A stretch of DNA of 63,078 nucleotides, counting the filler, from Platydemus manokwari (Eukaryota): assembly GCA_037951405.1 (NCBI GenBank). It is 5 parts of 5 records of this genome, joined end to end, with 100 filler letters (N's around TTAATTAATTAA, not from the genome) between each part and the next. Parts side by side here need not be neighbours in the genome. Positions count along the whole stretch, not along the records: positions 11,665 to 22,963 come from JBBMOY010785536.1; 4 more parts are not named here. One strand, given 5' to 3'. The notes beneath the pieces are model-generated. The model searched no databases, was not told the origin of the DNA, and was given only the letters and a program-made list of their open reading frames with translations. The position numbers and the translations under genes were made by a program. Positions 1 to 61,229 of the stretch are shown here, in pieces. Every line of letters starts with the position of its first letter. The stretch's first letter is position 1.

Positions 1-3000
1 ATTAGAATCATTTCAAATTACGGTTATTATTTTTCATTTAGCTACCAATCTATTTTATATTTTAGATTTTAGTAGCTTATGAGAACTTTGGGCCTTTGAC
101 TCCACAGATGTGAAACCAGTTACGAATGTGAATTCAAAATAGAAATGAATTCTAATTTGTACAACAATTCTTGCTTGAACTGGTACTTATTTTGTAATAT
201 TTGTTATAATTGTGTCTTACAGATTCATTGTTTTATTGTTTTAACATTGTTTCTTTGTAATGAGATTTATAAATGATTTTCTGTTGAATTTACAAATTTT
301 TGGGTTTTATCAGTTAAACTATATACGTGGGCTTTTAATGGTTATTTTAAAGCTTGCTTATTGAGCTTATCGGAATCATTAATGGTTATATAATGGTTTA
401 ATGGAATTTTATGAGTTATTAATGGTCTGCGAATCTATGTTCGCCTCACCACAAATGAATAAAAATCGACAATCGCTTTATGAGTCTCAATATGTTGAAA
501 TGTTTTGTGAAAGCCCGAATATCTTGACGTATTACATATTAAATATTCCAGTGGGACCTTATAAGATTAAAGCATTCATTATTACTTCCAAATAAGTTCC
601 CTACCGAAGGACACGATTTAGTGCCTCTCTGATTCCGATATCAAATAAACATGATTACTGATGATCTCCAAATATTGTTAGTCATAGCCTCTAATAGAGG
701 AATTTTCTACTTTATCATTAGAAATGCGTACTTATCTCACTGCATTATCAGAATAGTAACTACTCTGATTTAGTAATCAACATGCAATAGATGATATAGC
801 ACTATCAATCTCTGGGAATACAAAACCGTTTGCAGATTCTGAGCTGCTATCAGAAGAAAATTGCAATAAAAGCATCTTTATTGCATACCCACTACTTGTT
901 AAATATTAAAACATAAAAAATCGATTTTAGTCACTGTTTGTTTCTGTTTTGATTTACAGAATATATTTGAACAGGTGTTGAGATTGACGACTCATTTGTT
1001 TCGAATAGATATAAGATTGACTTTACAAAAGAATAGAAGTATTTGTTTATGAGAATGATTTTGGAGTGGGAATAGCTTTCTAAATTGGATTAAAGATGAT
1101 TTCGGGATGTATTCAAGTTGGGTTGGACTCTAACACACCCAAAGAATGTTTTAATCATCAAACACATGATTGTTATGGGTTTTGAAATTAATGTGAATAA
1201 TTTCGCTTATCAAATGCAGGTTATTCTGAATAAATGTGAGCGATAGACGATGAATATTATTCACTGACATTTTACGGATTTGATTCTGTGAATGACTAAA
1301 AATTCCAAACTTATCATCTCGAGTTACTAGTCCAAATATTGGATTCATCGATAATCACCATTGATACCTTATTCATCTAACTGGTGACAACATTATAAAT
1401 TGAATGGTGATCTGCTGAAAATTATACAGAAGATTTAAATTAATGTTATTCATTTGCAATTTTATGATCCTTTAATCTCCTATCCTTTAATCATATTAAA
1501 AATTGCGGAGTTCTTTAACTCTTTGATCACTTTTATTAAATAACATCAGAGTAATTATTCTGAGTCTCGTAATAGTTCCTTTATAAATAATTATTGATAA
1601 TGAATATAAGATTTTATGATACCCGTTGCAATTTATTAATTCGTAAACTCCCTATGCGATTGGATAAAATCACTTTGTAACTATCTTTTGGTTATCTCTA
1701 AACTCTAATTGTAAAATAGTTTTCGCTTCACATTAGTATATTAATTGATATCGTCGTTACTATTTTTTGTTTATCAATTGAGATAATTTTCATTTCTTTT
1801 CATTCACAAATACAAACACCAGCTGCAATTAGATAAACCTCATAAATTTCATTGATATGCCTCACATGAATTTAGTCTAACACACAACTATAATAATGAT
1901 AAAATAATATAAAATAATTACTGAGAATATGTATAAATTGGTTTGCGTTTAAGATTTATTAATTTTTTTTCTAACGTTACAACTATTTTTTATTCTGACT
2001 TTAACTGATTCCCCCACTGTTTTCTCATTTATAAATCACTCTTATATTATAAAATCCCCGTCATTTATAAGATATTTTTAATTTGATTTTATTTTAATAA
2101 ATTTATCTCTTTCCCAGTCTTTGAATATTTTCTTATTGCTAATTAATTGTTATGTTATTTAAATTTCTGTGTAGTTTAATTCTATGAATAATATTTTCTC
2201 TATTTTTCTTATTCAAAAAATGTTTATCATTAGTCGATATCGTAAATACATTAGTTTTACTTCATATAAATACTCCTTGTGTGGTCAGAGATATATTTTT
2301 TCCAGATAAACCATAAATATCGAATATAAATTTTTAAAAATGCACCCAGAATTCCAATGTTAGACATTTATGTGCCTATGTGATAAAAAAATCATCTATA
2401 GGTAAAAAGATAAAAAAAATTTAAGCACTGATTAAAATACTTTTTAAATGAACGATGTAGAACATTTTTTCCGTTAAACAGTATAATTCAAGATACGAAT
2501 TTTCATCTCCTATACAAACATAAGTGTTGATTGTTTAAAGATCAACAGTAAATGTTTGCTTGTTCTCTCCACATCGATTTCAATAAAACCTACTTACAAA
2601 TATAACATATAATAAATGATTTTGACTTTTATTCCATCTTTGATTGTTCAGATATTCGTTATTTTTATAAAAATTTATGCAACCCTCAAATTTATTATTT
2701 GACCTTAAAAATTACTCGCTGAGAAATATACTACAATACTTAATTATTTCTTATTTTAAGCAAAAATATTAGATTTGAATTCATTAAGTGTTGTCGGTAA
2801 ATGCCAGTGATTTTTTTAATGCTATTTTTATTTTCTATTTTATTTTTAGATAATTTTTAATCTATTTATTATTCTTATTAGTTGAGATGGAGTCTGATAC
2901 CCAACAATAATGAAACATTTTAAATTTACAAAATCAAAAAATCATATAAAAGTGTTGTGATTTGAACAGGAACTATGTTTATCAAATCCGTTTAATACTT

Positions 3001-3719
3001 ATTCAATATCCTAAAAACTGATCCATCAATTGAACTAAGTTAATAAATTAAAATCATGAAATAGAAAATAATATCATAAAAATATTCATTATTTATTTGA
3101 GAATTTTATATTATATACAATTTGTAGATATTTTTATTTCTTCTTATTTTAAAGAAGACGACTAAAAAATTACAATAAACATAAAAAATAACATTCAAAG
3201 CATTACTCTATCAATCATTTTATTTGATTTTATTATTATCAAGTTGCATTGGGTGTCTTATCGAGGTCTTCCAGATTTTGGTTATCAACACGGCATCCCT
3301 CTTAAAATTTTATCCATAACAACGAGAAATTCAATAGCATTTTACCGAAGAATAATTACTTTGTATGATTTTGGTCTAAAAGCAAAATTATTGGAAAAAT
3401 TAATTTTAACATCAAATTTGAGAAAATTATACATAAAATGACATTACAGGAGAAAATTCGTCATTATGAAAATAGGTCAAAGGACTCCTTTTCTTAAATT
3501 TATCAAAAATTCTGTTTGAAAACAAACTAAAATGTTCAAGTAGTTTAAATACCAATTAATTACTTTAAAATACAGTATATCCTTTATTTTTGAAATTTTC
3601 TGATTCTGGAATTTAAATAAGCAAATAAGGCGATCCTCGAACATGAATGGAGGGTCAAGAGAGGGGAACAACTAATGCGCATTCCTGATAATTGCCCAAA
3701 AGATACATTTGAAATCAGA

Positions 3720-12406: not shown

Positions 12407-12957
12407 TGTTAGCCACTACTATTTTCAAAATCACACATTAACCAGCTGTAAAATCAGGAAATCAAATTATATATAAATACAGATATTTAAACAAATTAAT
12501 ATCATTTTATAAATAAAATATTTTTACAAAATTAACTCTTTAAAAATTTTACTTTAATTTAAAATGCTCGCATTCACCTTTTTTTAAAATCATTGATTTT
12601 CTTTGTATTCTTAATTGGCGTTGTGTCTAATGCTCACATATATATCCACATAGAAAACTCTAGTTCATCTATCTGTTTTAAATCTTCTTAATATATTCTT
12701 TATATATTATCTAAATAATTTCAACATTGTCCTCCTTCTTTTCCATAATTTTCAGTCATCAAAATCGAATCGTGATGAGTGGTCGCCATGTTAGTTGCTT
12801 CTATTTTAAAACCCACACATTAAAAAAGAGCTGAATAGCCACGGCATCCAATTATATTTAACGACAATTATTTAAACAAACTCATTTAATTTTATACAAA
12901 ATTTTATACAAAAATAACAATTTATATAATAAAATATATAACATTATATTATACGCA
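12407..12957 (-). mobile_element. TRIM-like non-autonomous LTR element, copy 1
   Basis: On the minus strand: 5' LTR 12957-12789 (TG...CTAACA); PBS TGGCGACCACT from 12788; ~215-bp non-coding core; PPT AAAAAAAGGTGAA (12585-12573); 3' LTR 12572-12407 (TGCGAG...GGCTAACA). The LTRs are diverged and there is no clear TSD. Confidence 0.8.
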
Positions 12958-15900
12958 AATACTATTTACAATTACCTTGGTTACAAAATCATAAATAAAT
13001 AAAGGAGATTTCACTGTTTAAAAAGTTTATTAATTCGTTTAGACACTACTTACTGCTTGGAGTCAGTAATAATATTATTATTATTTTATATATTATTATT
13101 ATTATATTATTTTTTTTTTATTATAAAATTTAGTTTCTTATTATAAAATCTTAATGGTAAATGATTGGAGATTGTTTTGCTTTTCTCCTTGTTATTTTAC
13201 TTAATTGACATATTTTATATCTTCTTTTCTAACTATTTCTCGAATTATTACTCGTTGTGGGGCAGTGAGTGTTTGTTATTTTGATATGGCATATTTGATA
13301 ATCCCGACTTAAAATGTGAATAATTTGTGCTTTTCATTATTGTTACTTAGCTTGAAAAACAATGGAAAATTTATATAATTATATTCACAGATAATATGAT
13401 TATAAATCATAAAATAAATAAGATTGACGTTTCAAGTTGACATTTATTTGTTTTATTAGATATTTAATTTTTCAGTTCTTAATTTTTCTTGAACGATTGA
13501 TAAAAATAGAATAAGCTAGGATGATAATTTATGGTTTGGTGAGATTAAATATTCAATCTCATCTGGAATGAATTAGCCATATGTCTATGCGAAATAGCAA
13601 TTATTTCCTTAATTATTCCGAATTCAATCTTTAACGGAAATTATGAGTTCATGGGCATTGATAATTGAGCATGTTTTTTGATATTTCTGACAATGAAATT
13701 GCCCAGTCTACTAATTAATACGATAATCTATCTGCCTATCTGACTCTGAAGAACTGATAATTCCATTTCCTTAATCGCTGTATGTTGCCAATATTGATAG
13801 TGAGCCTTAGAATCTTAAGAAAACAGACTCGGCGGAGTTTGTCTAATTAAATGTACCACCCTTAGATCGATTCATGACTCGTTAGCTTTCATTATGTTGC
13901 TCAGAGGTGTAATAGCCCCATGGAAAAACACTATCGAATTATTAGCAATGAAAAGAAATTACACAAAAGATCTGTCACGAGAACTATTCACCTATTATTG
14001 TGAATCGAAAACCACTTCGATTAATCATATTCAAATCCTTTTTGTTTCTAAATTTCATTTTTTCTTTTTTTTTATTAGTTTATAATTATAAAAATAGTGA
14101 ATTGACTTTTTTTTCTTATTTTTTGTCTTTTTGCCAAAGAAACTTGTTGAATATCAAATCAAACACACAGCACTGAAATATGAAATCTTTTCATTGAAAC
14201 ATATATGTCTCTTATCACACTGTCAAGACCTATGTCGGTAGTGAATAAAATATACTACTCTTGTTTTCAAAAATTTTCACCAGAAATAGTTCCTTAGCAA
14301 TATTATTGAAATTATTAGAGGATAATGCATTCGTCATAAAAAATTTATGTCACCAAGTAAAATACCAAGCTTAATCTGATTAGAAAGTATTTTTTGAAAT
14401 AATTTCTTATTATTTCCAGTCATTGAAATGGAATATAAACACTTTTTCAAAATATTAGAATACCAATTTTATCAATAGACATATCTAAGAAATCCGATAT
14501 CTGATTCCATTAATGAGGCGTGCTGTCAAACAGCAGTAACACACTGTAGCATAGACGTGTAAGCAGTGTTTGAAAATTTATATATATAACAATTTAATTT
14601 ATTGAAGCCAAAGCTAGCAATAAGGAACTTATTGAATACCATTTTCAATGAATTATTATGAAATTAAATACCAGCATTTCATCACTCAAACATTATTATT
14701 TATGGATTTCATTAAGAAAAAGGGTTCTTTGACATAATTTTAATGTATCGATTTTTCATCTATTATTTAATTTCAAAATTTATGGATAATGATATTTTTA
14801 AATGTTTTGACTTCAAATATAATTTTAGATGAAAAAGAAAAACAACAATCCCAATTTGAAGTTCATTCAATTTTTTGAGCATAAATATCTTTGTGATCCG
14901 ATTTCATAAAGCATCTACAATGATTCGCCGTGATAACCTAAGTTTTAAATTTATAACATCTCCAGTAAAATCTCAAAACCATAGATCTGTCGTCATTCAT
15001 CATCAATTAAACATAAAGTAAAACTTTAATAATTAATTTTTATGTTATTCTTACAAGATTTTCCCCTGGAATTGTCATTCCGGGACTTTGAAATAGAAAA
15101 GCAAAGACAACAAGAAATCGCCAACTTTTATATAACAATAAAATTTTAAATATTTAGCGTAATTTTTATAGTTTTTTATCGTTTTGTGAAAGTTGATGTA
15201 TTTACATAATTCAGTTTATGTCGTACATTTTATGATGTCGAATAGGAACTAAACGATATTGCTAAACCAAGTTACTCTTCTAATCACAACAGTTTTATAT
15301 GATTGTTTGATTTTTCAAACTTAAATTTTTTTAATTATAAATCGAATTCGTTAACTACATCAATATTAGTTAACAATATCATTGCTTATTTTTATAAAAT
15401 AATTGTAAAAATTGGGAAGATCTCTCAACTTCTTTCTTATGTTAAAAAGAAGTCCTAACCAATTTTCTATTAATTGCAATTCGACCTACTTTGATCTACT
15501 TTTCATATAATCGCATTTTATGAGATTTTGAAGCTGTAGTTTATTTATTATTTGATTTCAAACAAATCAAAATACTTTTAAAGTACTCAAATAAAAAACC
15601 CAAAATGTTTTAAGATAGATAGATTTTCGCAAGACACAACGAATTAAAAATTTATTTTGGAATTCCTTTTCACAACTTTAGCTACTTATTTTAAGAATAG
15701 AACGATCATTTGGTGAAAATATATTATTTAGATTTATATCCGTCAGTTTAAATTGATTGAAATGTAATAAACAGAATTTCTTTGTTTAAACGTGATTAAA
15801 ATTGGTGTTGACTGCTGATACCTAGGAGGTCTGCCAATATTTCGGCATGTGAATTTGTCAGTACAACTGGGAATCGATATTTTCATTATTTCCTTTGATA

Positions 15901-19754: not shown

Positions 19755-20379
19755 TGTGAGATACTTTAAATGAGATACTTTTTAATTCTAATTTTTATAA
19801 AAAATCATATTTATATAAAATTAAATTTATTTGCATAAAAATTGTATTTAAATAGATTTTTGGTATATTGATTTTTCAGTTTGTTTTTGATGTGCGGTTT
19901 TTAAAAAAATAGCGGTTAACATGGTGACCACGCATCTGGATTCGATTCTGAAATGATAAACGACTGGAAATTATAGAAAAATAGGAGGAAGATACTGAGA
20001 TTATATTAAAAATCTCTAAAAAAGATATAAGGAAGATATAAAGAAGTTGTAAAAGAGATAAAAATGGGATATAAAAGAAGATATAAAAGAGGATATAATG
20101 GAGATGTAAAAGAAGATATTAAAAGATAGAAGAATTAGAGTTTTCTTGTAATGAAATATTTAATGTATTGGGTACAGAGGCAATTAACAAAATCATTGAT
20201 TTTAAAGAAAGCGGGGTGTGAGATACTTTAAATGAATTAAATTTTTAATTTAAATTTAATTCTAATTTAATATAAAATTAAATTTATTTGTTTAAATATT
20301 CGTATTGAAATAGATTTTTAGTGTTTTGATTCTTCAGTTGATTTTCAATATGTGGCTTATAAAATAGTCACGGCTAACA
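19755..20379 (+). mobile_element. TRIM-like non-autonomous LTR element, copy 2 (best preserved)
   Basis: 5' LTR 19755-19921 (TGTGAGATACTTTAAATGA...CGGTTAACA); PBS TGGTGACCACG at 19922; purine-rich core with AAAGAAGATATA-like repeats; PPT AAAGAAAGCGGGG at 20204-20216; 3' LTR 20217-20379 (TGTGAGATACTTTAAATGA...CGGCTAACA). Confidence 0.9.
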
Positions 20380-20686: not shown

Positions 20687-20795
20687 TGTAAGCTGCAAGT
20701 AGTTTATAAATCACCCATTGAAAACGAACTGAGAAGTCATGACACCAAATTATGTAATTAAATAATATTATATAAATAAATATGATCCCGTGACA
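20687..20795 (-). repeat. Solo or partial LTR of the TRIM-like family
   Basis: TGTAAGCTGC...GAGAAGTCATGACACCAAATTAT is the reverse complement of the LTR 3' half seen at 40506-40572. Confidence 0.65.
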
Positions 20796-20966: not shown

Positions 20967-21040
20967 TGTGACCCGCTACTATTTTAAAAACCACAAATTA
21001 AATCTGAACTGAAAAGTCAAGGTACCAAAAATCTATTTGT
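20967..21040 (-). repeat. Partial LTR (3' end) of the TRIM-like family
   Basis: TGTGACCCGCTACTATTTTAAAAACCACA...CTGAAAAGTCAA matches the LTR ends at 12407, 12789 and 61103. Confidence 0.65.
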
Positions 21041-21099
21041 TAATGTCTACTGATGTCTTTGTTGTTGTATTTTTAAATATCTACGTTTTTCAATATTTA

Positions 21100-21809
21100 T
21101 ACACTATTCTTTTTCATGATGTCCTCGAAAATGGCACTTTTGCATTTGATTATATTTGGACAAATTCCGGTTTTATGGCCTTTTCCATGGCATCTCGAAC
21201 AAGTTACATTCTATGGAGTGTTACAGTTTTGTGTTATATGACGTGGTTTGTTACAGTTGTAGCAATCCGGGGTCTCTTTTCTCCTTACTTGGATTTTTGG
21301 TTTATGATTGGATTTTCGTCTTGTTGTCCAATTGTGTGACGTTTACCGAACTCACATTCTTTATATATAACTATAAACGCGCAAACAAATATATTTTTAT
21401 TTTACATATTATCCAAACAAATATTCCTTTTTAAAATTCGTCAACCTTAGGGTTTCCATATAATCTTGGGCGAATGATTTCTTTTAACCAAACGCCTTCC
21501 TCAGTCTACCCTTGTATTCATTTTCGCATCTTTTACTTCAAATTGCTCTACTCAGATGTCGTCTAATCGTTGTATTACGATAGCGTAATGGACTTGCTTT
21601 GAGATTTTCACAGCCTCGAATTATCGATTACACTGTTTAATAAAGTGTTGGGCGTTATTCCTCAATTTTTATTTGTCTGGGAACAGCAAGCCTAGGTCGC
21701 CATGTCTGTAGCTAACACTTCTTTGTTTTTTATCTTATATTCAAAACACATAACTATTAGTGGGCAAAAAATATTTTTATATGACATATTATCCGAAATA
21801 TTGATTACA
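21100..21809 (-). mobile_element. 5' part of a decayed LTR retrotransposon: LTR, PBS and gag with CCHC zinc knuckles
   Basis: LTR 21809-21703 (TGTAATC...CAGACA); PBS TGGCGACC at 21702-21695; gag-like LLFPDK...HFIKQCNR*FEAVKI; knuckles CYNCNKPRHITQNC (21264-21223) and CSRCHGKGHKTGIC (21201-21160), plus a broken third. Confidence 0.8.
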
Positions 21810-22963
21810 CTTTTTTTTAAATTGATCGATATTATGCACCATATTAAATTTTATGGCAGCATCAAATAATGTACCAAATTCAAATGCGTGGTCGACATGT
21901 TAATTACTAAAACGTCATTGTTTTTAATATTTAAATCAAAAGACATGTTAACAGAACAAAAGCGTTTATTTTTATAATACATTCGTGGGCATTTGTCATG
22001 TGTAGAGTCAAGCAAGAGATACTAGGCTGTAGAACATACATCACTTTTTTCTCGATTGTGTTGTACGTTCTGCGGTTTTCATTGAATGGGTCTCTTTCGT
22101 AGATTCTCTCATTGGATGGCAATACATTCAGTCTGACTTCTCATAAACAAAAACCAAAATTTATTTACAAACAATGTATATCCAAAAAGTCATACAAGTA
22201 TGACTTATATTTAGAGTCTTTTCCAAAGATCGGCTTCTAGTATGACAGGTTGCTATTTTCATATTTTCTTTGTGACTTGGAGTTCTTGTTGTTCCGAACA
22301 TGATTCATTTGTTGGCAGAGTTCAAATATACAAAATCAAACCCAAATTTGAAATACAAGTCCGGAACCACAACACGCTATAGATATAAAATTCCGAGATT
22401 ATAGTTCCGAACTAGCAATACCGAACTCAAAAGTTTTAAGACACATGTTAATAAAAGTCCATTTCCAATCCCAACCCAAATACAAAATATAACCCCAAAA
22501 GTACAAGTCCGAACCCACAAGTCCGAAACCATAACTCAGAAAAGATAAAAGTCCGAGGTTACAGCTTCGAGCTAGCAAGTCAGTACTCATAGTTTTGAAC
22601 TTATATGTTCAAAAAATTTAAAGACAAAAAATACAATACAAAAATAACAATGAATAAAGAAGAACTCTACTACTTATTAAAGTAGGCCTAGGTATTATTT
22701 TATCTGTTGTTAATTTACCATAATGACCTTTACATTTTCTATAAATAAAATAACATAAGTTACACAAACCTGCATTACGACGAGATATCATCAGAGTCAC
22801 CCTGAATATTGATAAAAAGAGAATTTACTTTATAAATCATATCCAGTGAGATAGTTTCATCAAAAAAGTTTAATCTTTTTGAGATCTCAGTACATTTTAA
22901 TTTAGTTAACATCAATGAGCATTGTTTTCGAATAAAAGAATCATCAATTAGGTGATTACTGAT

Positions 22964-28930: not shown

Positions 28931-30220
28931 TTCTTAATTGTCAAACTATTCAAAAGGTACTTTAGAGTTGGGTTAATATTAGATTAGGTTAAGTTTAATT
29001 TTTCACTAAAATGTAACGAAGTTTGTTTTATGGTTCTTGCTCACATATTTTTTTATTTATTATGTTAAATACTAATGCAGTAAAGATCAAGACTTGATTA
29101 CAATGGCAATTTATTAATTTACAATTATTAATTTATAATTAATTAAAATGTTGATAGTTTAATTTATAATTTATCTGCAATTTTAAATATTAGAGTTTGA
29201 AAAATAAGTCAGCAAGAGTTGTAAAATATGTTTAGTGAAAATATTCAAACTTATAACAAAACAAAATACACTTTGATATCACACACTGTGTTAACTGCCT
29301 GAGAATATAATTCAGAGTGACTCACACTACGTAGAATAGGAAGACCAACCAAAAAATAAAAATGACAATGCACGAAACAAGTTTTTACGTCTTTTTAAAT
29401 GATTCAAATATTTTACAATAATCTTCGTTGAAAAAATAATATAATAGAATTTCCATTAATTTTGTTCTTATGTTGAAGGTCGCACCCAGCCAACAACATC
29501 TCCACATCTTCAACTTAATAATATTCAACAAAATATATAATCCATATCTAATCCAACACTCAACCCAATGTCAATCAAATTAAATACCAACAATGATTAA
29601 ATCTGATCTGATTCAGATTCCACTAAATGAAAATTAAACTCTAATCGAACTTTTAAACTCATATTTTTACATAACTGATCGAACCGCTTGAACATTGAAA
29701 ATATTTTTTTGCTTCTGCTTATAATTGATGTTTTTATGTGATGAATATTCGAAATATCAGTATTTCATAATTAGTTCTTTGCATGATTATGATGTTATAA
29801 ATCTTATAAATTCTATGTTACGTTCGAGTCTTATTGAACTTATTTCATTTAATATTACTATAGTCTTAATTACTTTCATTTAATTATTAATTAAGACCGC
29901 AAGAGTAATGAACCGGTTTCTTATTTTATTCTTCATCTCGCACAACGTTATTGTAATAACGGCATTAAATTTAGCAATCTATCAATCTCAGATTATGCAC
30001 GTTATCTTAATCCATAAACTCGCTGACACCAACGATAATGAACTATAATCCATATTTAATCAATAACTAAGACATATTATTACAAGTGCTTATCATTAAA
30101 TAACAACTATACCATTTGACAACTAAATAAAACAATAAAATAGAAATTACAAGCTAATTTTAACGGTGTAATATACACTAAAACATTACTACTGTCATTA
30201 ATAATTCCTTAATAATTTTA

Positions 30221-30311
30221 ATTATCAATTTTAGTTTCTAAAAAATTATTACTTAACATATTATATAAATTCGGTTTCAATGGTGGCATTTTTATTCTCA
30301 GAGTTCGCGTT
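30221..30311 (+). repeat. ~90-bp dispersed repeat, copy 1
   Basis: 30235-30311 is identical to 34349-34425 (TTTCTAAAAAATTATTACTTAAC...CAGAGTTCGCGTT). Confidence 0.9.
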
Positions 30312-34313: not shown

Positions 34314-34334
34314 AATTAATATGCGGGTAATATT

Positions 34335-34425
34335 ATTATCAATTGTACTTTCTAAAAAATTATTACTTAACATATTATATAAATTCGGTTTCAATGGTGG
34401 CATTTTTATTCTCAGAGTTCGCGTT
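34335..34425 (+). repeat. ~90-bp dispersed repeat, copy 2, running into the contig end
   Basis: Near-identical to 30221-30311. Confidence 0.9.
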
Positions 34426-34525: not shown

Positions 34526-34849
34526 TAATTCACCCAGTTATATATTCAAAATATATATCTAGTAAATATCAACTAGCTTTGTTCTACTAAATATATCGCT
34601 TATTCATATATCTGAAGATGCGCTTTGGAACAGATGATTGGGAACAGAGAACAAATCGATATGAAATAACAGTACGAATATAAGCACTCCACCAGCAGCG
34701 TTTGAAATATTGTCAATAAATATTAAATCTGATTGCTGGCGAGATAAATCTGTAACTCATTTCAAAAAAAGAAAAATAGAAAATAGTGTTAATCGATTGC
34801 CATAACGACTGTTACGTTAAATCATTTAATAAAATGGGCCAATTTTCCA

Positions 34850-36100
34850 TTTTTCAGAAATAAAAATGAAAGAACATAGAATTCTTAAGAAAGATAAAAG
34901 AGATCAAGAAAGAACAAAGTTAGTTATAATGATAAGATCTACAGGATTAAAATAAGAAATCCTTGAGGATGCTGCTAAAACAAGGAAAATAATACCCGAT
35001 AATTGGTGCATTTTCAACATCAGAATAATGCCAAATAAAATTAAGGAAGCGCTATAGTGAAACCAGTTCATGGAGACTAATTAAATTGATTGACTGTGTC
35101 TGCAAAATATATCACATTCAACTTTGAAAAATATTAAGAAAATAGAAAGAGGAAAAAACCTACTTCACTCTATACAAAACAGTCTTGTATGGTTTGAAGA
35201 ATGCACATAACACAACCATTATGGCACTCTGTTAAAGAGACACAGCATAAAAAGAAGGTAATTCTACACAGAAGCGTACAAAATACGTATGTAGTACGAA
35301 AGAAAGGGGATGTCTCAATAAAAGCAACAATAATAATCAAAAATGTCTATAACGATTGTAGTACGTCTTTTCTATCAAGAGACTACTACCATAATCTTAT
35401 CTACATCACAAGAGGTATAAGTAAAGGTTGTTCTATTTCAATGTTCTACCTCGATTTAACATTCTAACCAATTCATTTCTACCAGAGGCTCAAAATATAA
35501 TCAGAACAAGTGATAAAGCCTTTATAGAGTATTCTAAAAATTAAATAATAAAAAATGCCTAAACAATCAATTGCTTAAAATGAGAGCATTCTTGGAGAAA
35601 GTTGGTGGTCTCTGTGTTCAAGACCATAATAAAACCAGAAATAGACATGGAGAATCACTACATATATCTTGAACTTAACCTTGCTGATAAAGTTACACAC
35701 CTTTATTGGATATCTTTCTAATAATCTAATGACGTTCTCGACAAAGGTGCGAAAATTTTCTTTCCATATTTGAAATTGGATGCTCAAAATATCATCGTCA
35801 AAAAAGATATCATTTTCTCTATAAGTAACATATACTAGACTGGGTAACATAGATGTACTGATTAGGAAAAAACTTTATAGAATTCTGAGCGCTCCAAAAT
35901 CATGCTTGACCAATTATCTATACTCTAAAAGTCCTTATAATAGAGGTAGCACGAGAAGTATTACAAAATAATATACCATTCATTCAATAATCCATTTCAT
36001 AAGTAATCTCACAAATAAGTAAAGTGAAGTAAATGACTGTAGAATTATTAAGAAGGTTCAATATGGAAATTAATGTTCTTCGTTGGAGAAACTTAGTGGA
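34850..36100 (+). mobile_element. Highly decayed non-LTR retrotransposon RT remnant
   Basis: SSWRLIKLIDCVCKIY (cf. WRPI.L....YK.Y, ~35065) and IYITRGISKGCSISM (cf. I.RGV.QGCPLS, ~35400); A-rich strand with many stops. Confidence 0.55.
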
Positions 36101-36270
36101 TCAATATTCTAGAAGTAGATAACATCATGGGGAGGAGATTGGAGATAAAGTCATTATTTGAATATTTTAAAATTTTCAAAATATTTTCCAACGAAATTGT
36201 ATAAAAGTTACTCGAATGCTTTAATTTCAACAAAGCTTTTAATTTTGAAGAGAAAAATTTTTTAGTCACC

Positions 36271-39200
36271 TTTTTTACTGGAATTAGGATATCTGTTTTT
36301 AACATACAGGAGTGGAATAAACATCAACCCATACAATATTCCAGAAAATAGACTCAAACCGATAGCTCTAGAATGCCAAATATGTTAGTCAAAACATTCG
36401 AAATATTCAACAAACAAAAATTTAGATTTTCTCTTCTTAACAAAATGAATAATTCGATTATGTGAATTACTGTTATCATGAGTCTGAATATTGTCTGTCG
36501 AGTCATGTGTTAAAATTGGTATCGCTTCCGTTTCGTGTCCCGAATGTATCATATTAACATTTGGTTTGATAAGGCCATATATCATTGGGCTGAAATGAAT
36601 TCGTATAAACAACCAATATTTACGGACCACGTGGGCTATAAATGATTAACGATTTGCATTCAATAACAGTTAATTATATACAAACGATAGTGAACCATAG
36701 ATTCTGAATTAGTAATTATGTATTGAACTTCTCTGTAGATAAATATCATGAAATAGGCAACTGATAATGAAATGGTCAGTTAATTTGCCAATCAGAATCA
36801 CGAAGAGAGGAATAAGAGAGTATTTTGGATATTGATTATAAATTTATAATATTTTCTAAGAATATAATCAAATTGAGAATCTTTAAATATTTTAATTATT
36901 TTAAATAAATTATTAAAAATACTTTTAAATTACTTTTTTGGTTAAATATAATTCTTTGTGTTGACTTTTTTCAGAGTCGTTTTCAACAAATATTTAATGA
37001 AATATTAGTGGCTAACAATCCCTATGTTTAATTCAGTATGTAAAGTCGAAAGGATATTATAAGTACACTAAAATGCCCTGATGGTATAAATTCATTGATA
37101 ACCTTTATGAATAATTATTTCCATCTTAACTTTATCTTTCGATTATTTCTATTGAAACGACTGAAATAAAGGCAATGGAAAATTTTTTAAAATTGGACCT
37201 ACTTCTATAGAAACAATATGCCATAGAAAATTTATCGTGGTTCCTTCTTTAATTTATTGTATATGACAAAGTTGAAATATTCCAATATTTTTTTTCAAAA
37301 ACTTCAATTGAAATCAGAAAAACCTTGTCTTCGAATATATTTCCACAATGAGCTACAGACAATTCTTTCAAATTTAACAGTCTAGATTTAGAGACAAAAC
37401 GAAAATAATTATTCCAAATTTTTCACAATAATTGATTCATATACTTATTGATACATCAAATTAATTTTTATAAATACTTGATTTTTTAAATGAAAGATAA
37501 ACTTGATTATTCTTCATGATAAAATTATAATAGAACAAGAAAAGAAAATTCGTACAATAATAATTAATAATAAATTTATTCTAAAATACGGTATATCAAT
37601 CCTGGAATAAAATTTTTTTTTAATATTTGAACTGGGGAACTTAATAAAAAATGACTTTAATTGTTAGCTAATTGTTCACTAATCAAGAAATATATATAAA
37701 CCGTGTGTTTCATATGTGTCTGTCTCTAAAACTAAAATAAAACAACAAAGCACAATATAATTTATACTCACATATTTATACTCATTGATCTTAATTATTA
37801 TTCACTGATTAATGTACTTTATTTCTTATTTCTTATTAATCAGTTACATTATTACAAAATGTTAAATTTTCGCTTACTGATAAAGTGTTTATAGTTAGCT
37901 ATGCAATACTTTACCAGAGTAGTATCAAAGTTTGCCAAGAATTTTAACAACATTTCAATCGTTCACTACCAGCTTAGACAACAGTGCAATATTGGAAATA
38001 GAAGTTTGAAGAAACTGAAAACTTATCCACTAGGTTGCGATCAGGAAGACCGTATGATGAAACGATGAAGGAAAAGGAGAAATTTTGTAAAAGAGAATGA
38101 TGGCACAAATCAACGAGAAATTGCACGAGTGTGTATGACCTCACATACTACTGTTCACAGATATCTCAAGGAAGAAAAAATAATACCTTTCAAATATTCT
38201 TTTAATCAATCATTGAGAGAAGATTATCCCGATAGGAAGGTTGAATTTTGTTCTTGGATAGTCAACGAAAGCAATGTCAATTTCCATAAAAAGATTATTT
38301 TCTCAGATGAATCTTCGTTTTATCTAAACGGTCTCGTACGAAAACACAATCGTTTTTATTACGCTAACGAAAATGAACATCGTGTGTTATCTGTATCGCT
38401 TAAGCCATCTGGACTGGCCGTTTGGGCGGCTATGTAATAAGATCTTGATGTAACCTTCAGTATCAGTCGTGAAACAATGAACAAATAACGATATGTCGTT
38501 GTTTTAAATCAAAAGCTGTTGTACTTCATTGGAAATAACAATCAACATTGGTATCAAACTCGATGGTGTCCCACCTAATTTCATTATTCCAGTACGACAA
38601 TGGATTGATTAACATTTTCCACAGCGGCGGATTGATCCTAGAGGACCAAAGGAATGGCTCCTAGATTTCCAGAACTCAGTATATTGGACTTTTGGCCATG
38701 GAGCTATATCAAAGATCAAGTTTATGCAATACATAACAATTATACAACGCTCAACCAACTTGAAGAAGCAATTTTACATGAATTAATAAACATCAATCAA
38801 AACGTAAATGTTATTCAAGCTTCACAAAACGATACAATATCTGTTTGGAGCAAGATGGTGAACATTTTGAACAGTCGCTACGAAATTGCTTATCATTTAC
38901 CGTTATTTGTTTTTACTGTTATTGTGTTTTGTTGTGCATTAAAGTAACTCAATACATTTATTTTGTTCTTACTGTTGTTTTATTTTAGTTTTAGAGGCGG
39001 AGACTTATGAATCACACGGTATATATATATATATATATCACATTGAAGTTGAATTTAAATAAATGGTGCCTAAAATAGTGAAATAAATCGTAATACTTAA
39101 CTAAAATAAATATTAAAATATTAAATTATCAAATAAAATTATCAATTACTTCAACATAACGAAAAGCATGGATATGATTTTAACACCCTTACAACTGCAT

Positions 39201-42030
39201 TAGCCCATTTTTAATATAAAGCAGGTATAACTAACCATATAGCAGTGAATACAAATCCTATGTAATTCATTGGTAGATTATTTGGTAGCTCTGGATCAAT
39301 ACCAAACCATCCAAATCTAAATATTTAACAATTATAAATTGTATTCGATTTATTTTGGGATTATTTTTATTTAGCTATAAAATGATAAATAATTTTTCAT
39401 TAGTAAAATAATTGAAAAATCAAAAAACAAGTACAAATACATTTATGTAAAACTAAATGAATAATAATCTCTTACACAAGACAAACTCCATTGTATCGCT
39501 TATATTCTTAGGCAAAAAGAAATTCCAGTAGGAGCCCAATAAGTAAACAAATATAATCAAAATTTTACGAGGATATAACTGAAGTTATTACGAATGGTAA
39601 AATATTAAAATAAATGATCACGAAAAAATAATTCAGCACATAGTAAACTAAATGATGTCAGAAACAAGTCAATTAAAATCTAAAAGAAATAAGAAATATT
39701 TTACCAGTAGTGACGATTGTGAAAGAAAGCCTTTAATAATAAACAAATACATTATAATAATATTTTATTTTATTAAATTACTTCGATTGCCTATGCAAAT
39801 TAAATGAATATCTTGTTAGGAATTACAAGCTCTACGTGCTTGAAAAGAACTTTCTCGTGTAAAGGTAGACATTATTTAATATTCAATTCAGTTTAATGAA
39901 TTATTAAAATATTATACACTAAACATGGCATTTGATTCCAAAGCTCAAAAATTTGTTATTGCTATTGCGTAAAATCTCAAAGTTATTTGAATAAAATTTA
40001 ATTTTCAATTTGGACTTATTCGCATATATATATATATATGAAATCATTATATTCTCCTAAAAATATTTATGTTGATATCGGTTAATGTGAATTGCTCTAA
40101 TTTCATTATATACAACCTAAATCCACACATCAGCTCTAACATAAAAGGGCAGAAAATAATTTAATTTAAATATGAGAAATTCGAATGGGAGACAAATAAA
40201 TTTTTATAATGATGATGATGATGATAGTAACGGTTTACATGGCGACCATTCATTTGGATTCGATTCTGAGAAGATCTATGGCATGCAAGTATTGTAGAGA
40301 AAATGGAAAATATAGAGAACATACATAAAAGATAAAGAGAAGAAATCTTGACATAGATAAATATTTAGAGAATTCGATACAGAGATAATTAATAATCGAT
40401 AGAAAATCAAAATTTTAAAGAAAGGAGAATGTGAGGATTTTAAAAATAATGATAATGAAATGAATATAAAAGTATATTAATATGTTAAAATAATTGCAAA
40501 GAAATATAATTTGGTGTCGTGACTTTTCAGTGTGTTTTCAATGCGTTCTTCATAAAATAGTAGCGACTTACTCCGACCCGTATGACTTCTGATTTCATTT
40601 AATGTTGTAAATGATGTCATTTGTTTTCATATTTATAAATTCAAGTAGGATGATGGTTGTTGTTAATATTTCTATTAAACGTGCACGATTTATAAATGAT
40701 TTGATCATTTTCCGCTATGTACTCTATCAAGATCTTTATAAGTTTGTTGGTATTAGCCTACTGGTCATATTTCACATTCTGTTAATGGTGACCATTCTCC
40801 CTCGCGTTTGCGTGCTTCAATCAACTTATTATCATCATTAAAGATATATTATATGTTTAAATATTTTCGGAATTAAATATGTTCTTTCACTTGCATTTAA
40901 ATAGAAAAACGAACAAAATCCGCTAAAGTTCAAGATTTGCTTTATACAAACAGACAATCGAATATGGTGTCAGAATAAAATGATAAAGCAATTTTTATTA
41001 AAACAATTTAAACAAACCTCGTACTAAGCCAACTTATGATTATCGACGAGGAACTCCACAAAAGTATGCCCTTGCCAAGGCCAATCAAATTAACAATTGG
41101 AACCACACAAATATTTCCTAAAGATTCGTTAAATGTCAAGATTATTTTATTAATAACAACAACAGAAACTCTGAAAATGGAAATACATCAATAGAATGAT
41201 TAAATCTAAAAGTTCTCTTTAAAATAATACTAAATTGAGATGATATTAATATGATAGAGCTGGATCAAAACAAAGAACATGACGATAAATTATGGGTCCT
41301 TTTATACGTGATCGCATATCCTATTCGAGATGTCGAAATTCGGAATGATCGTTTGGCCATTAAAATCAGAATCAAGTGATTGAAATTATCCAATGTCACA
41401 GCGAAATCAATTCCTTACACATTTCCCCATCATAGTTAAATCATACGTTTGTTGCTATTTCTATTCAGAAATTCAATTACAATACACCGATCTTATGGGC
41501 AAATTCAGATATTTTCAATAGGAAAACATAATATTTGTCAAGTTTTATTTAAAATTTATAATAAATTAAGAATAAAAATTGCGAGAAAATAAAGTAATAT
41601 TATCATTAAAAATAAATGTATTACAAATTTAATAAAGAACCAATTAAATTATTGAATATTTTTTATATCTATAATAGTTATTTTAAAATTTAGTTACTCT
41701 AATTTTCAGATATTAAAACCATATCATTACCTGTTGACCATATAAATCCTCCTAATATTACTAAAGGCTCAAATTTGGGGAAATTATAATATCCAGCTAC
41801 TGGAAAACTTCCAATAAAAATAGCATTACATACTATCCACTGAAAAAACATACCTAAAATGGTGATTCAAATCTCATTTATTTTAATCGAAACATACCAT
41901 CTCCTGCATTTACTTTTTTTATTGGTAAAAAGTTAATACCAAAGCCTATTACGGTAACCAATAATCCTATAAAACCATATCCCACAGGAATGTTTTCACT
42001 AGGTTTGGATGTAGTATAACCCAAAAGCAT
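36271..42030 (-). CDS. TMEM144: TMEM144-like multipass membrane protein, paralog B (exons 1-6; last two exons not in this contig)
   Basis: Exons at about 42030-41898 (MLLG...FGINFLPIKKVNAGDG), 41852-41731 (MFFQWIVCNAIF...GGFIWSTG), 41117-41018 (NICVVPIVNLIGLGKGILLW), 39316-39236 (RFGWFGIDP), 36589-36417 (PMIYGLIK...) and 36368-36271 (AIGLSLFSGILYGLMFIP). GDGMFFQW and RFGWFG are TMEM144 hallmarks. Confidence 0.88.
36873..37017 (+). repeat. Solo LTR of the TRIM-like family
   Basis: TGAGAATCTTTAAA...TGTGTTGACTTTTTTCAG...TAGTGGCTAACA; same start and end motifs and similar length to the 20217-20379 and 40430-40572 LTRs. Confidence 0.65.
37701..39019 (+). mobile_element. Full-length but inactivated Tc1/mariner transposon, rosa/DD41D-like, in intron 4 of TMEM144-B
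   Basis: ~46-bp TIRs (CCGTGTGTTTCATATGTGTCTGTCTCTAAAACTAAAATAAAACAAC and its reverse complement ending at 39019), right flank (TA)n. Transposase motifs IIFSDES, VWAA, DGVPP, RGPKEW.PRFPELSILDFWPWSYIKDQVY. The second and third Asp codons are 125 nt apart (~41 residues). Stops and frameshifts are present. Confidence 0.92.
40171..40572 (+). mobile_element. TRIM-like non-autonomous LTR element, copy 3, in intron 3 of TMEM144-B
   Basis: Eroded 5' LTR ending CGGTTTACA (40239); PBS TGGCGACCATT plus GGATTCGATTCTGA; PPT AAAGAAAGGAGAA at 40417-40429; 3' LTR TGTGAGG...AAAATAGTAGCGACTTAC at 40430-40572. Confidence 0.8.
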
Positions 42031-42744
42031 AGTGGTGTTAATTTTCAAATAATTTTAAATGACCTTGAAAAGTTGATTAGTGATTATTGTATTTATAAAA
42101 ACATTTATCAGATATTAATAAAACATAACTTTGAATACAATGAAAAATAAATCTTACACTTGTTTATTCGAAAAATTGCATTAATAAAAAATCCCGGTAG
42201 CATTTACTTGCTAATAATTTTCGTTTGATTCTTTTACATTACAATGGTTAGAAGAAATTAGGTCAAGGACGAATTGTAATTATTGCAATGTTTGAAGAAT
42301 AAATCCGCGTGACTTTCTAATCTCATTTGTATGTCAATGACGTAATGTTAAGCGAAATTTTATTTGTTATTTCAGATATTACCACGCAATTTTTAATCTT
42401 AACAGTACAACTGAATTAATTTAATTTTGGTTTTGTACTAATGAATTTTTGTACTAATTGTAATTAAAATATATTATAAAATTTTATTTCTTCCAAAACT
42501 TTAAATAGTTTCTTTGCGCGGTGCACATTACTTTATGAAGTTTCGTGGCACACTAATAAAACATATTGAAATATCTAGCTTTTTCTAAATTCTGTCAACA
42601 TTATTCATCTCTTCTATTATGCTGGAGAATAATTTTATTCACGAGCCTTATTAGTTTAAAAGCAATGTTTAAAAAATATCAATTAACACCAAAATAAATA
42701 ATAAATAAAATAATTTCTGTTTGGGAAATTTTTTCTTAATGTCT

Positions 42745-42935
42745 CCACTTGACTTCGAGTACTGACAAACAAAAGTAATAAAATTTAAAATACTGATGAA
42801 CGTCATTCCAAATTTAAACGTATCTATCTAAATAGAATATGAAATTTAGGTGTGTTGATTTCTTGGGTGTTTTATTATATATAATTTCTGATATTGTATA
42901 AAACACCCAAGAAGTCAGTACTCGAAGTCAAGTGG
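42745..42935. mobile_element. 191-bp MITE-like element with perfect 22-bp terminal inverted repeats
   Basis: CCACTTGACTTCGAGTACTGAC (42745-42766) and GTCAGTACTCGAAGTCAAGTGG (42914-42935); internal 16-bp inverted repeat at 42860-42875 and 42898-42913. Confidence 0.75.
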
Positions 42936-44316
42936 TCCAATCCTCTAAGAAGCATTTACCATTATCTTTGGAATTAGATAACAATAAATGCTTAAAATAA
43001 GATTGAGCTTGTATGTACCTACAATCCCTCTGGTAAAAATGAGTTTGAGCATTAATTTATTTGTATTTAATAGAGTGATTGGATTAGATTCAATTAATTT
43101 AACTTTAAAGTAAAATCACAGCAAAATTGATTGAAAAAGTTATTTGATCAAGATAAAATTACTGGAAACGAGTTTAGGTGATGTGGAATAAGTATAATTC
43201 TACAAAGAATTCGTGCTGTTGATATATAATTGATTGTATCTTGTGATTGAGTAGGTGTAATAATTGCAGAGCTTTCTGTCTAATATTTCTTGACTGATAA
43301 TAATTGGCTAATTGTAATATCAAATATAATATTAGGTGCAGTCTAATATTGGGCGCGTAAGTGTCATTTTTAGGTATATGTATATTATTATTTTCATTCT
43401 TTGTTTGATGCTGTTTCTAATTTTATATTTAATTTAGTCTATTATTATCTTTTGTATTTGTTTGTTTCTACTTTTGGTGTTTTCATATTTTATTAATACT
43501 ATTTTTATTTTTTGATCTATGTTTATAAAAAATGTTTATTTATTATCTTACTTCGCATATTTTTAAGTTTCTATAATTATCAATATAGTTAGTGTATTAT
43601 TTACGATTTAACAAAATAATTTTTAGTTTTTGCGATATATTAATTTCGATAGTTTTCGGAATATATGACTTACTTCATGTGTGTTAATTAAAATATTACC
43701 ATTATGGATTAGTGTTTTTATACCTTTTGTGGTCATGAAACGATTTATACACACCCACTCATTACATGTAAATAAAACTCGAATACATTGAAAGGATGAA
43801 TGGCCATGTGCCCTAGCTTTATTTTAATTATAACTGTAAATGCTTTATTGAAAGAAAAACGTGAGGAATGTTAAAAATGCAGTCCATTTTTTGATATTTT
43901 GTACAAACGGATATGAGTTTGCAAAATGTGGCTCAAAGTATGATTAGCCTAACCCCACGGAATCTAGGTTGAAAAGCAATGTTGTAATGTGTAAAATTAT
44001 AAATCTTCCAAAGGATAATCGGCTTTGTTGTTTAATAAAATAAAACGTTGAATACAATAAAACTCTATCAGCGAAGGACTTATAGGATAATGTTTTATTT
44101 ACATTATGGTGTTATATAATATGTAAGGTGTAAACAAAACAGTTAATTGAAAAGTCAAATGTACAGCATTAAAATCCAACTAATAGATATTCACAATATA
44201 AACAAATTATGAACGCTAAATATCTCTTCTATAGAGAACTCATTCTCGTTAAATTAATCAATAAAAATGAAGGAACACAAGATGAAAATAATAATTTATT
44301 TCAAGGAATAAATTTC

Positions 44317-45435
<1,119 letters not shown>

Positions 45436-45614
45436 TTATTATTTCAAATTACAGGATTAAATAAAACAAAAAACAAACATACAGAAAATTCATTAATATG
45501 ATATTTGTCATTTCTATTTGCTATTACGTAACTCATATAAATATTTATCAACAGAAATCAATAAATATTGCCAACATTTTAATTACGCACAAATAAAACC
45601 ATGAAAAATGTAAG

Positions 45615-61102: not shown

Positions 61103-61229
61103 TGTAAGCCGCTACTATTTTATAAAACAGGCTTTGTAAACGAATTGAGAAGTCACGACATCACATTATGTATTTAAATACCATTATATAAACAAATTGA
61201 TATAAAATTAAATCTTTAAAAATTGCACG
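61103..61229 (-). repeat. Solo LTR of the TRIM-like family
   Basis: TGTAAGCCGCTACTATTTTATAAAAC...GAGAAGTCACGACATC is the reverse complement of the 40430-40572 LTR type. Confidence 0.7.

What the first reader, a model, noticed from the sequence alone, without database searches (positions are those of the whole stretch)
19755..20379. Dispersed family of miniature non-coding LTR retroelements (TRIM-like) not visible in the ORF track
Seen: two ~165-bp direct repeats, each TG...CA, with a PBS immediately after the first, a polypurine tract immediately before the second, and only ~295 bp of non-coding core. The same architecture recurs at 12407-12957 (-) and 40171-40572 (+). Solo or partial LTRs occur at 20687, 20967, 36873 and 61103, so the family is present on four of the five contigs, including introns of TMEM144-B and UNC-80. 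Established: LTR-PBS-short core-PPT-LTR defines TRIMs, which are common in plants and more sparsely reported in animals (e.g. cestodes). Inference: about 8 relics in 63 kb implies a high-copy, old family with at least two LTR subtypes (ending GGCTAACA or GGCTTACA) that may be uncatalogued.
Basis: partly seen in the sequence, partly recalled or inferred. Interest (0 to 1): 0.72.

Follow-up and report, generated by a model that had tools for sequence, protein, structure and literature searches.

The report
Flatworm miniature retrotransposon with traceable parents
This is a real, old and abundant family of tiny protein-free jumping elements in a flatworm genome; it shares its ends and primer site with two decayed full-size retrotransposon families there, which likely belong to the group that gave rise to it and moved it.

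Summary
Confirmed as a TRIM. 19755-20379 has 167/163-bp TG..CA LTRs (84% identical), a 295-bp non-coding core, a PBS and a PPT. Genome copies have sharp ends and 5-bp TSDs (56 of 85 bases match, against 31% by chance). The primer is tRNA-Arg(ACG): 12 nt match, plus a further T-arm match after a 2-nt bulge.

Two decayed coding Ty3/Gypsy families in the same genome share the LTR termini, PBS, PPT and 5-bp TSD. The TRIM's first 60 internal bases are colinear with one family's gag start; its last bases match the other's integrase end. The direct parent was not found.

No copy is over 85% identical to the two queries, so the family looks inactive. The host is a flatworm, probably free-living.

Corrections: seven relics on three stretches, not about eight on four. 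The window is denser than other contigs; roughly 10^4 fragments genome-wide. The flagged copy has no clear TSD.

Animal TRIMs are known (ants, tapeworms, bivalves). The scan noted a different, tRNA-bearing TRIM in another planarian genome, but no look-alike of this one. Verdict: new member of a known kind.

The parts
19755..19921 (+). 5' LTR (167 bp, TGTGAG..ACA)
19922..19933 (+). PBS, 11 of 12 nt complementary to the 3' end of host tRNA-Arg(ACG)
19936..19953 (+). Extended match to the tRNA T-arm after a 2-nt bulge (13 of 18 in this copy); function inferred
   Evidence: read against the tRNA
19921..19981 (+). Decayed gag start, colinear with coding family B; the ATG position spans the LTR/PBS junction
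20187..20216 (+). Integrase-end relic and polypurine tract (left boundary approximate)
20217..20379 (+). 3' LTR (163 bp)
12407..12957 (-). Diverged full copy (about 65-70% identical); 5' boundary uncertain, 12941-12957
40171..40572 (+). Diverged copy with most of the 5' LTR lost, inside an intron of the second TMEM144-like gene
20687..20786 (-). Partial LTR, GCTTACA type
20967..21038 (-). Partial LTR
36873..37017 (+).
61103..61213 (-). Partial LTR, GCTTACA type
21443..21793 (-). Relic of coding Gypsy family A: LTR end, PBS and broken gag start
21057..21363 (-). Relic of coding Gypsy family B: broken gag zinc-knuckle region

Best explanation
This is a TRIM, a miniature non-coding LTR retrotransposon with tRNA-Arg primer site, polypurine tract and 5-bp target duplications, which likely arose by internal deletion from a Ty3/Gypsy element of a clade still present as relics in this genome and was likely copied by that clade's proteins. 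Shown: the architecture, the primer match, the TSDs, the termini, PBS and PPT shared with coding families A and B, colinearity with family B gag for 60 nt, and similarity to family A's integrase end. Inferred, following the standard LTR cycle: transcription from the 5' LTR, packaging by helper Gag, minus-strand priming by tRNA-Arg(ACG) with possible extra T-arm pairing, plus-strand priming at the PPT, and integration by helper integrase with a 5-bp stagger. Solo LTRs and the tandem copy would then come from LTR-LTR recombination. The family appears inactive now.
For: 5-bp TSD: 56 of 85 bases in 17 complete copies, 0 of 20000 permutations as high; 4 and 6 bp not enriched. Second subtype: 24 of 45, 16 of 5000. 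30 of 30 junctions chosen by the LTR/PBS motif run into the same short core. 30 of 179 second-subtype junctions examined; none has an ORF over 98 aa downstream. The host tRNA gene fragment scores as tRNA, with anticodon ACG read from the sequence. The coding family has Gag knuckle, protease-like (below Pfam cutoff), RNase H and integrase domains in Gypsy order. Solo LTRs of families A and B also have 5-bp TSDs: 53 of 70 and 51 of 80, 0 of 5000. TRIM against family B, nt 33-60: 54% identity against 29% null, 0 of 2000. Last 60 nt against family A's 3' end: mean Z 3.7 and 4.2.
Against: The direct parent with the same LTR body was not found among 60 junctions. TRIM LTRs resemble A and B clearly only at the termini; other LTR hits are weak, AT-rich and on both strands. 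The middle of the core shows no significant match to gag or pol, and the 5' match is not significant when unanchored. Against family A, nt 33-60 is not significant (P 0.16). Family B's 3' end was not tested. The flagged copy lacks a clear TSD, and only 13 of 17 copies keep TG and 13 of 17 keep CA. No expression data.
Confidence: 0.88

Rival explanations
1. The short copies are independent deletion wrecks of one long LTR element and never moved as a unit.
For: The core keeps gag and integrase ends. Internally shortened family A copies exist. Core lengths vary from 205 to 337 bp in 12 of 14 parsed junction-chosen copies.
Against: All 30 junctions share the same core. No long version was seen among 60 junctions. 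Subfamilies have their own diagnostic bases.
Confidence: 0.04
2. It is a TRIM, but it was moved by an unrelated helper, and the likeness to families A and B reflects ancestry or a common primer only.
For: LTR bodies differ from A and B. Helper switching has been proposed for taeniid TRIMs (PMC4558846, section 24 read).
Against: First 6 and last 6 LTR bases, PBS position, PPT and TSD length all match A and B. LTR-LTR identity in 4 of 5 family A copies (80-88%, gaps included) is in a similar range to the TRIM's 84-94% (ungapped columns).
Confidence: 0.07
3. It is a dispersed satellite or a Pol III-promoter TRIM of the Helenus, Ajax or Cassandra type.
For: One tandem LTR-core-LTR-core-LTR copy (L039) and short A/G-rich subrepeats in the core.
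Against: Copies are dispersed and carry TSDs. No tRNA or 5S match in the element. A and B boxes in 0 of 57 LTR 3' parts; tRNA similarity at chance level (P 0.7).
Confidence: 0.01

Closest known systems
ta-TRIM of taeniid cestodes and its candidate helper lennie (PMC4558846; passages and section 24 read)
   Same: Flatworm TRIM; TG..CA LTRs of about 200 bp; many solo LTRs; helper proposed from shared LTR start, PBS and TSD length.
   Different: ta-TRIM uses tRNA-Leu (9 nt, 4 nt from the LTR), has mostly 4-bp TSDs in E. multilocularis, a core of about 590 bp with no protein similarity, and is highly expressed. This family uses tRNA-Arg (12 nt, flush with the LTR), has 5-bp TSDs and a core of about 290 bp with gag and integrase relics. 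No sequence comparison was made.
PbTRIM of ants (PMC3532108; passages)
   Same: 480-781 bp, LTRs 152-184 bp, PBS and PPT, solo LTRs, copies in or near genes.
   Different: tRNA-Leu primer, 4-bp TSD, young copies, no autonomous relative found.
biv-TRIM of bivalves (PMC6934838; passages)
   Same: Solo, canonical and tandem forms; 27,489 loci in one genome, mostly fragments.
   Different: No typical PBS and no partner element found.
Plant TRIMs with parent elements, such as OsajRetroS10 and OsajLTRA10 (PMC4717578; passages)
   Same: TRIM traceable to a longer LTR element; 5-bp TSD; tandem arrays.
   Different: There the parent is highly similar in LTR and internal region (11 of 289 subfamilies). 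Here only sister families were found.
Ty1 extended primer pairing (PMC4974528; passages)
   Same: PBS inside gag, with extra complementarity to the primer's T arm just 3' of the PBS.
   Different: Ty1 uses initiator tRNA-Met and the pairing was shown by experiment. Here it is a sequence match only.
Helenus and Ajax, TRIMp3 (PMC10886601; abstract and passages)
   Same: Animal TRIMs linked to Gypsy helpers through PBS similarity.
   Different: They carry a tRNA- or 5S-derived Pol III promoter in the LTR; none was found here.

Membership tests
TRIM | Total length under 1 kb with two terminal direct repeats of about 100-250 bp | tested here: met
   625 bp, LTRs 167/163; other copies 140-195 bp, one subfamily about 210-232 bp
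TRIM | LTRs bounded by TG..CA | tested here: met
   Flagged copy yes; 13 of 17 TG and 13 of 17 CA in complete copies
TRIM | PBS complementary to a host tRNA 3' end | tested here: met
   Mean 11.1 and 11.9 of 12 nt to tRNA-Arg(ACG) in 42 and 17 copies; tRNA gene fragment
TRIM | PPT next to the 3' LTR | tested here: met
   Located in 28 of 30 loci, often decayed
TRIM | No coding capacity | tested here: met
   Longest sense-strand open frame 32-59 codons in 30 copies; first stop by codon 30 in 28 of 29
TRIM | Target-site duplications | tested here: met
   5 bp at family level; not in the flagged copy
TRIM | Mobilised in trans by an autonomous LTR element | not testable with these tools
   Candidate clade identified by shared cis signals only
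Ty3/Gypsy (coding families A and B) | gag, then protease, RT, RNase H, integrase in that order between LTRs | tested here: met
   Family A: order of fragments; Pfam zf-CCHC, RT_RNaseH_2 and rve above cutoff, protease below. Family B: only gag and a protease motif seen
Named Gypsy clade (Mag, CsRn1, Saci2 and others) | RT phylogeny with reference elements | not tested
   No named references among 74 hits; Saci2 has 4-bp TSDs (PMC12471100, passages), which does not fit
Helenus, Ajax, Cassandra (TRIMp3) | tRNA- or 5S-derived Pol III promoter in the LTR | tested here: not met
Already catalogued repeat | Match in Dfam or Repbase | not testable with these tools
   Libraries not available

The most novel reading that the evidence does not exclude
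A free-living-flatworm TRIM whose whole history can be read. It descends from a compact Gypsy clade in which the gag start codon is built from the LTR's last base plus the PBS and integrase runs into the PPT. Both parasite and helpers grip tRNA-Arg through a Ty1-like extended T-arm contact, which the TRIM strengthened once freed from coding, letting it out-compete its helpers for primer.
Probability: 0.3. Interest if true: 0.62.

Novelty: new member of a known kind. Interest (0 to 1): 0.42.

Why it matters
Few animal TRIM families are described, and for the ant and bivalve ones no parent or helper was found. Here the TRIM, its primer tRNA and two related coding families sit in one genome, so reductive origin can be traced base by base. 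The possible extended primer contact gives a testable reason why a minimal element could outnumber its helpers. Practically, roughly 10^4 fragments, some intronic, need masking in this genome. It does not change the concept of TRIMs.

Tried and rejected
Search for young copies: best non-self hits were 83% and 85% identical to two queries (40 scored of about 4,600 candidates each). A fragmented short-read assembly can hide young copies, so inactivity is not proven. Search for a direct coding parent among 60 LTR/PBS junctions: none (7 of the 30 had under 600 bp downstream). A mid-gag origin of the core's middle: alignments often land near gag nt 400, but Z is about 0, so rejected as unsupported. 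A conserved short peptide from the junction ATG: stops are scattered and subfamily changes are non-synonymous; rejected. A 4- or 6-bp TSD: rejected. Pol III promoter or structured RNA: none. Sequencing runs: one holder, no RNA holder listed; no reads were laid, so insertion polymorphism is open. Twenty arbitrarily numbered contigs gave 0 hits in 8.3 kb, too little to inform density. A TMEM144 exon search returned nothing. The ESM Atlas gave only generic Gypsy clusters. Parisot 2014 (PMC4202319; passages) and the planarian genome paper (PMC11410931; passages) gave no clade name and no TRIM.

Full report
Observation. The window is five stretches (joints). At 19755-20379 there are two direct repeats of 167 and 163 bp, both TG..CA, 133 of 159 aligned bases identical, around a 295-bp core that begins with a PBS and ends with a purine tract. 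A search with 148 segments of real copies found family hits at 12407, 19814, 20687/20967, 36934, 40240 and 61103, and none in the reversed window. That is seven relics on three stretches. Exons of a second TMEM144-like paralogue flank the 40.2-kb and 36.9-kb copies. The UNC-80 intron claim is likely but not shown.

The family in the genome. G000 has 911 Mb in 1.99 million contigs. The element gave 4,556 first-look candidates; the 40 scored matched at 78-83% over most of the length, apart from the copy itself. A second query gave 4,648 candidates and at most 85% over full length. Of the 30 loci fetched, 28 could be parsed (core 271-306 bp; this set is biased to full-length likeness) and 17 had both ends. 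Their LTR pairs are 84-94% identical. Flanks match in a 5-bp register at 56 of 85 bases against 31% for mismatched pairs (0 of 20000 permutations); 4 and 6 bp are at chance. The flagged copy matches at only 1 of 5.

Unbiased samples. An exact 22-nt LTR/PBS junction occurs 48 times, control 0. All 30 junctions examined continue into the same core; 14 could be measured, 12 at 205-337 bp, one tandem and one with an insertion. The second LTR subtype has 179 exact 17-nt junctions. In the 30 examined, no downstream ORF exceeds 98 aa, TSD matches are 24 of 45 (16 of 5000), and LTR identity is 68-95% in the 16 with a second LTR.

Abundance. Density is 7 in 62.7 kb in the window, 4 in 131 kb of other long-contig stretches, and 3 in 134 kb around Gypsy hits after dropping two hits to the Gypsy PPT itself and one weak hit (control 1). 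These contigs were not randomly chosen and the counts are small. About 25-30 per Mb suggests an order of 10^4 fragments, mostly LTR pieces. This is an extrapolation.

Primer. A pattern search found two tRNA 3' parts. L032 scores as tRNA, cut by the contig end (36.8 bits), with anticodon ACG read from the sequence. The PBS matches its 3' end over 12 nt and stops at position 13. After a 2-nt offset the next 18 nt match again: mean 11.9 of 18 in both TRIM subfamilies (null P 0.0007 and 0.004), 10.6 in the third, 9.8 in family A (P 0.025) and 8.8 in family B (P 0.12). Predicted duplexes are 8-10 kcal/mol more stable than with shuffled tails in TRIMs and 5-6 in the coding families. Copies are not independent, two loci are counted twice, and only one tRNA was tested. 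The alanine codon in this stretch is GCG in 23 of 28 A and 16 of 30 B copies, against 2 of 68 and 0 of 55 at the few other alanine sites counted; this is weak support for a nucleotide-level constraint. Ty1 has such T-arm contacts inside gag (PMC4974528, passages). Function here is untested.

Coding relatives. A search for a longer tRNA match found L064, where an ORF begins at an ATG made of the LTR's last A and the PBS's TG. It defines family A (588 candidates, 150 scored). Family B was found beside it (892 candidates). The junction ATG is present in 26 of 28 A, 28 of 30 B and 24 of 29 TRIM copies. Family A copies are broken, about 3-4.4 kb, with domains in Gypsy order. Relatives of its Pol are unnamed Gypsy proteins, best 74% identical, and nine of the ten C-termini printed end in a similar GG- or EG-containing tract, consistent with integrase overlapping the PPT. 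A and B LTRs (about 260-330 bp) start TGTGAG and end CTAACA like the TRIM's, and their solo LTRs have 5-bp TSDs. In register from the PBS, the TRIM matches family B at 57% over nt 13-60 and 54% over nt 33-60 (null 27-29%), about as well as A matches B (59%); the match ends after nt 60. The last 60 nt match family A's 3' end (Z above 3 in 8 and 10 of 13 copies); the core's middle matches nothing significantly. The parent was therefore probably a sister family that I did not find. Relics of A and B lie in the window at 21057-21793.

Host. All 10 named hits of a window exon are parasitic flatworms at 60-65%; an unnamed protein is at 90% (13 hits). With about 27% GC this points to a free-living flatworm, possibly a planarian. 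That last step is inference.

Literature. Searches listed TRIMs from ants, taeniids, bivalves and the TRIMp3 groups, and none from a free-living flatworm. Most subscription journals, Repbase and Dfam were not searched, and no supplements were read; repeat libraries in supplements could hold this family. What was read of each paper is given under Closest known systems.

Verdict. A real TRIM family, a new member of a known kind. Its extra value is the visible ancestry and the extended primer match. Interest 0.42.

Noticed in passing
L031:735-773 (G000:C615661): The 3' half of tRNA-Arg ending in a genome-encoded CCA, without its 5' half; likely a reverse-transcribed tRNA or primer fragment.
   Followed up: partly
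L039; L061: A tandem LTR-core-LTR-core-LTR copy, and a second short tandem with two PBS junctions 159 bp apart.
   Followed up: partly
L055: A TRIM copy with an insertion of about 360 bp in its core; the insert looks like an inverted family B LTR (by eye, untested).
   Followed up: no
L113 (G000:C1416978): A family B element inserted into the 3' end of a family A element.
   Followed up: partly
window 21790-21910 (-): A further diverged PBS junction with gag-like codons, perhaps a third coding family of the clade.
   Followed up: no
window 30213-30311 and 34328-34425: A 99-bp repeat, 96% identical, ending at a contig end.
   Followed up: no
window 2913-3142 and 15104-15331; 37690-37760 and 38958-39030: Another dispersed repeat (71%), and an inverted repeat around transposase-like ORFs at 38069-38947 (Tc1/mariner label recalled, untested).
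   Followed up: no
window 34526-45614 (-): Two tandem TMEM144-like paralogues with matching exons at 68-79% identity.
   Followed up: partly
L103: Several TRAF/MATH-like ORFs on one contig (label recalled, untested).
   Followed up: no
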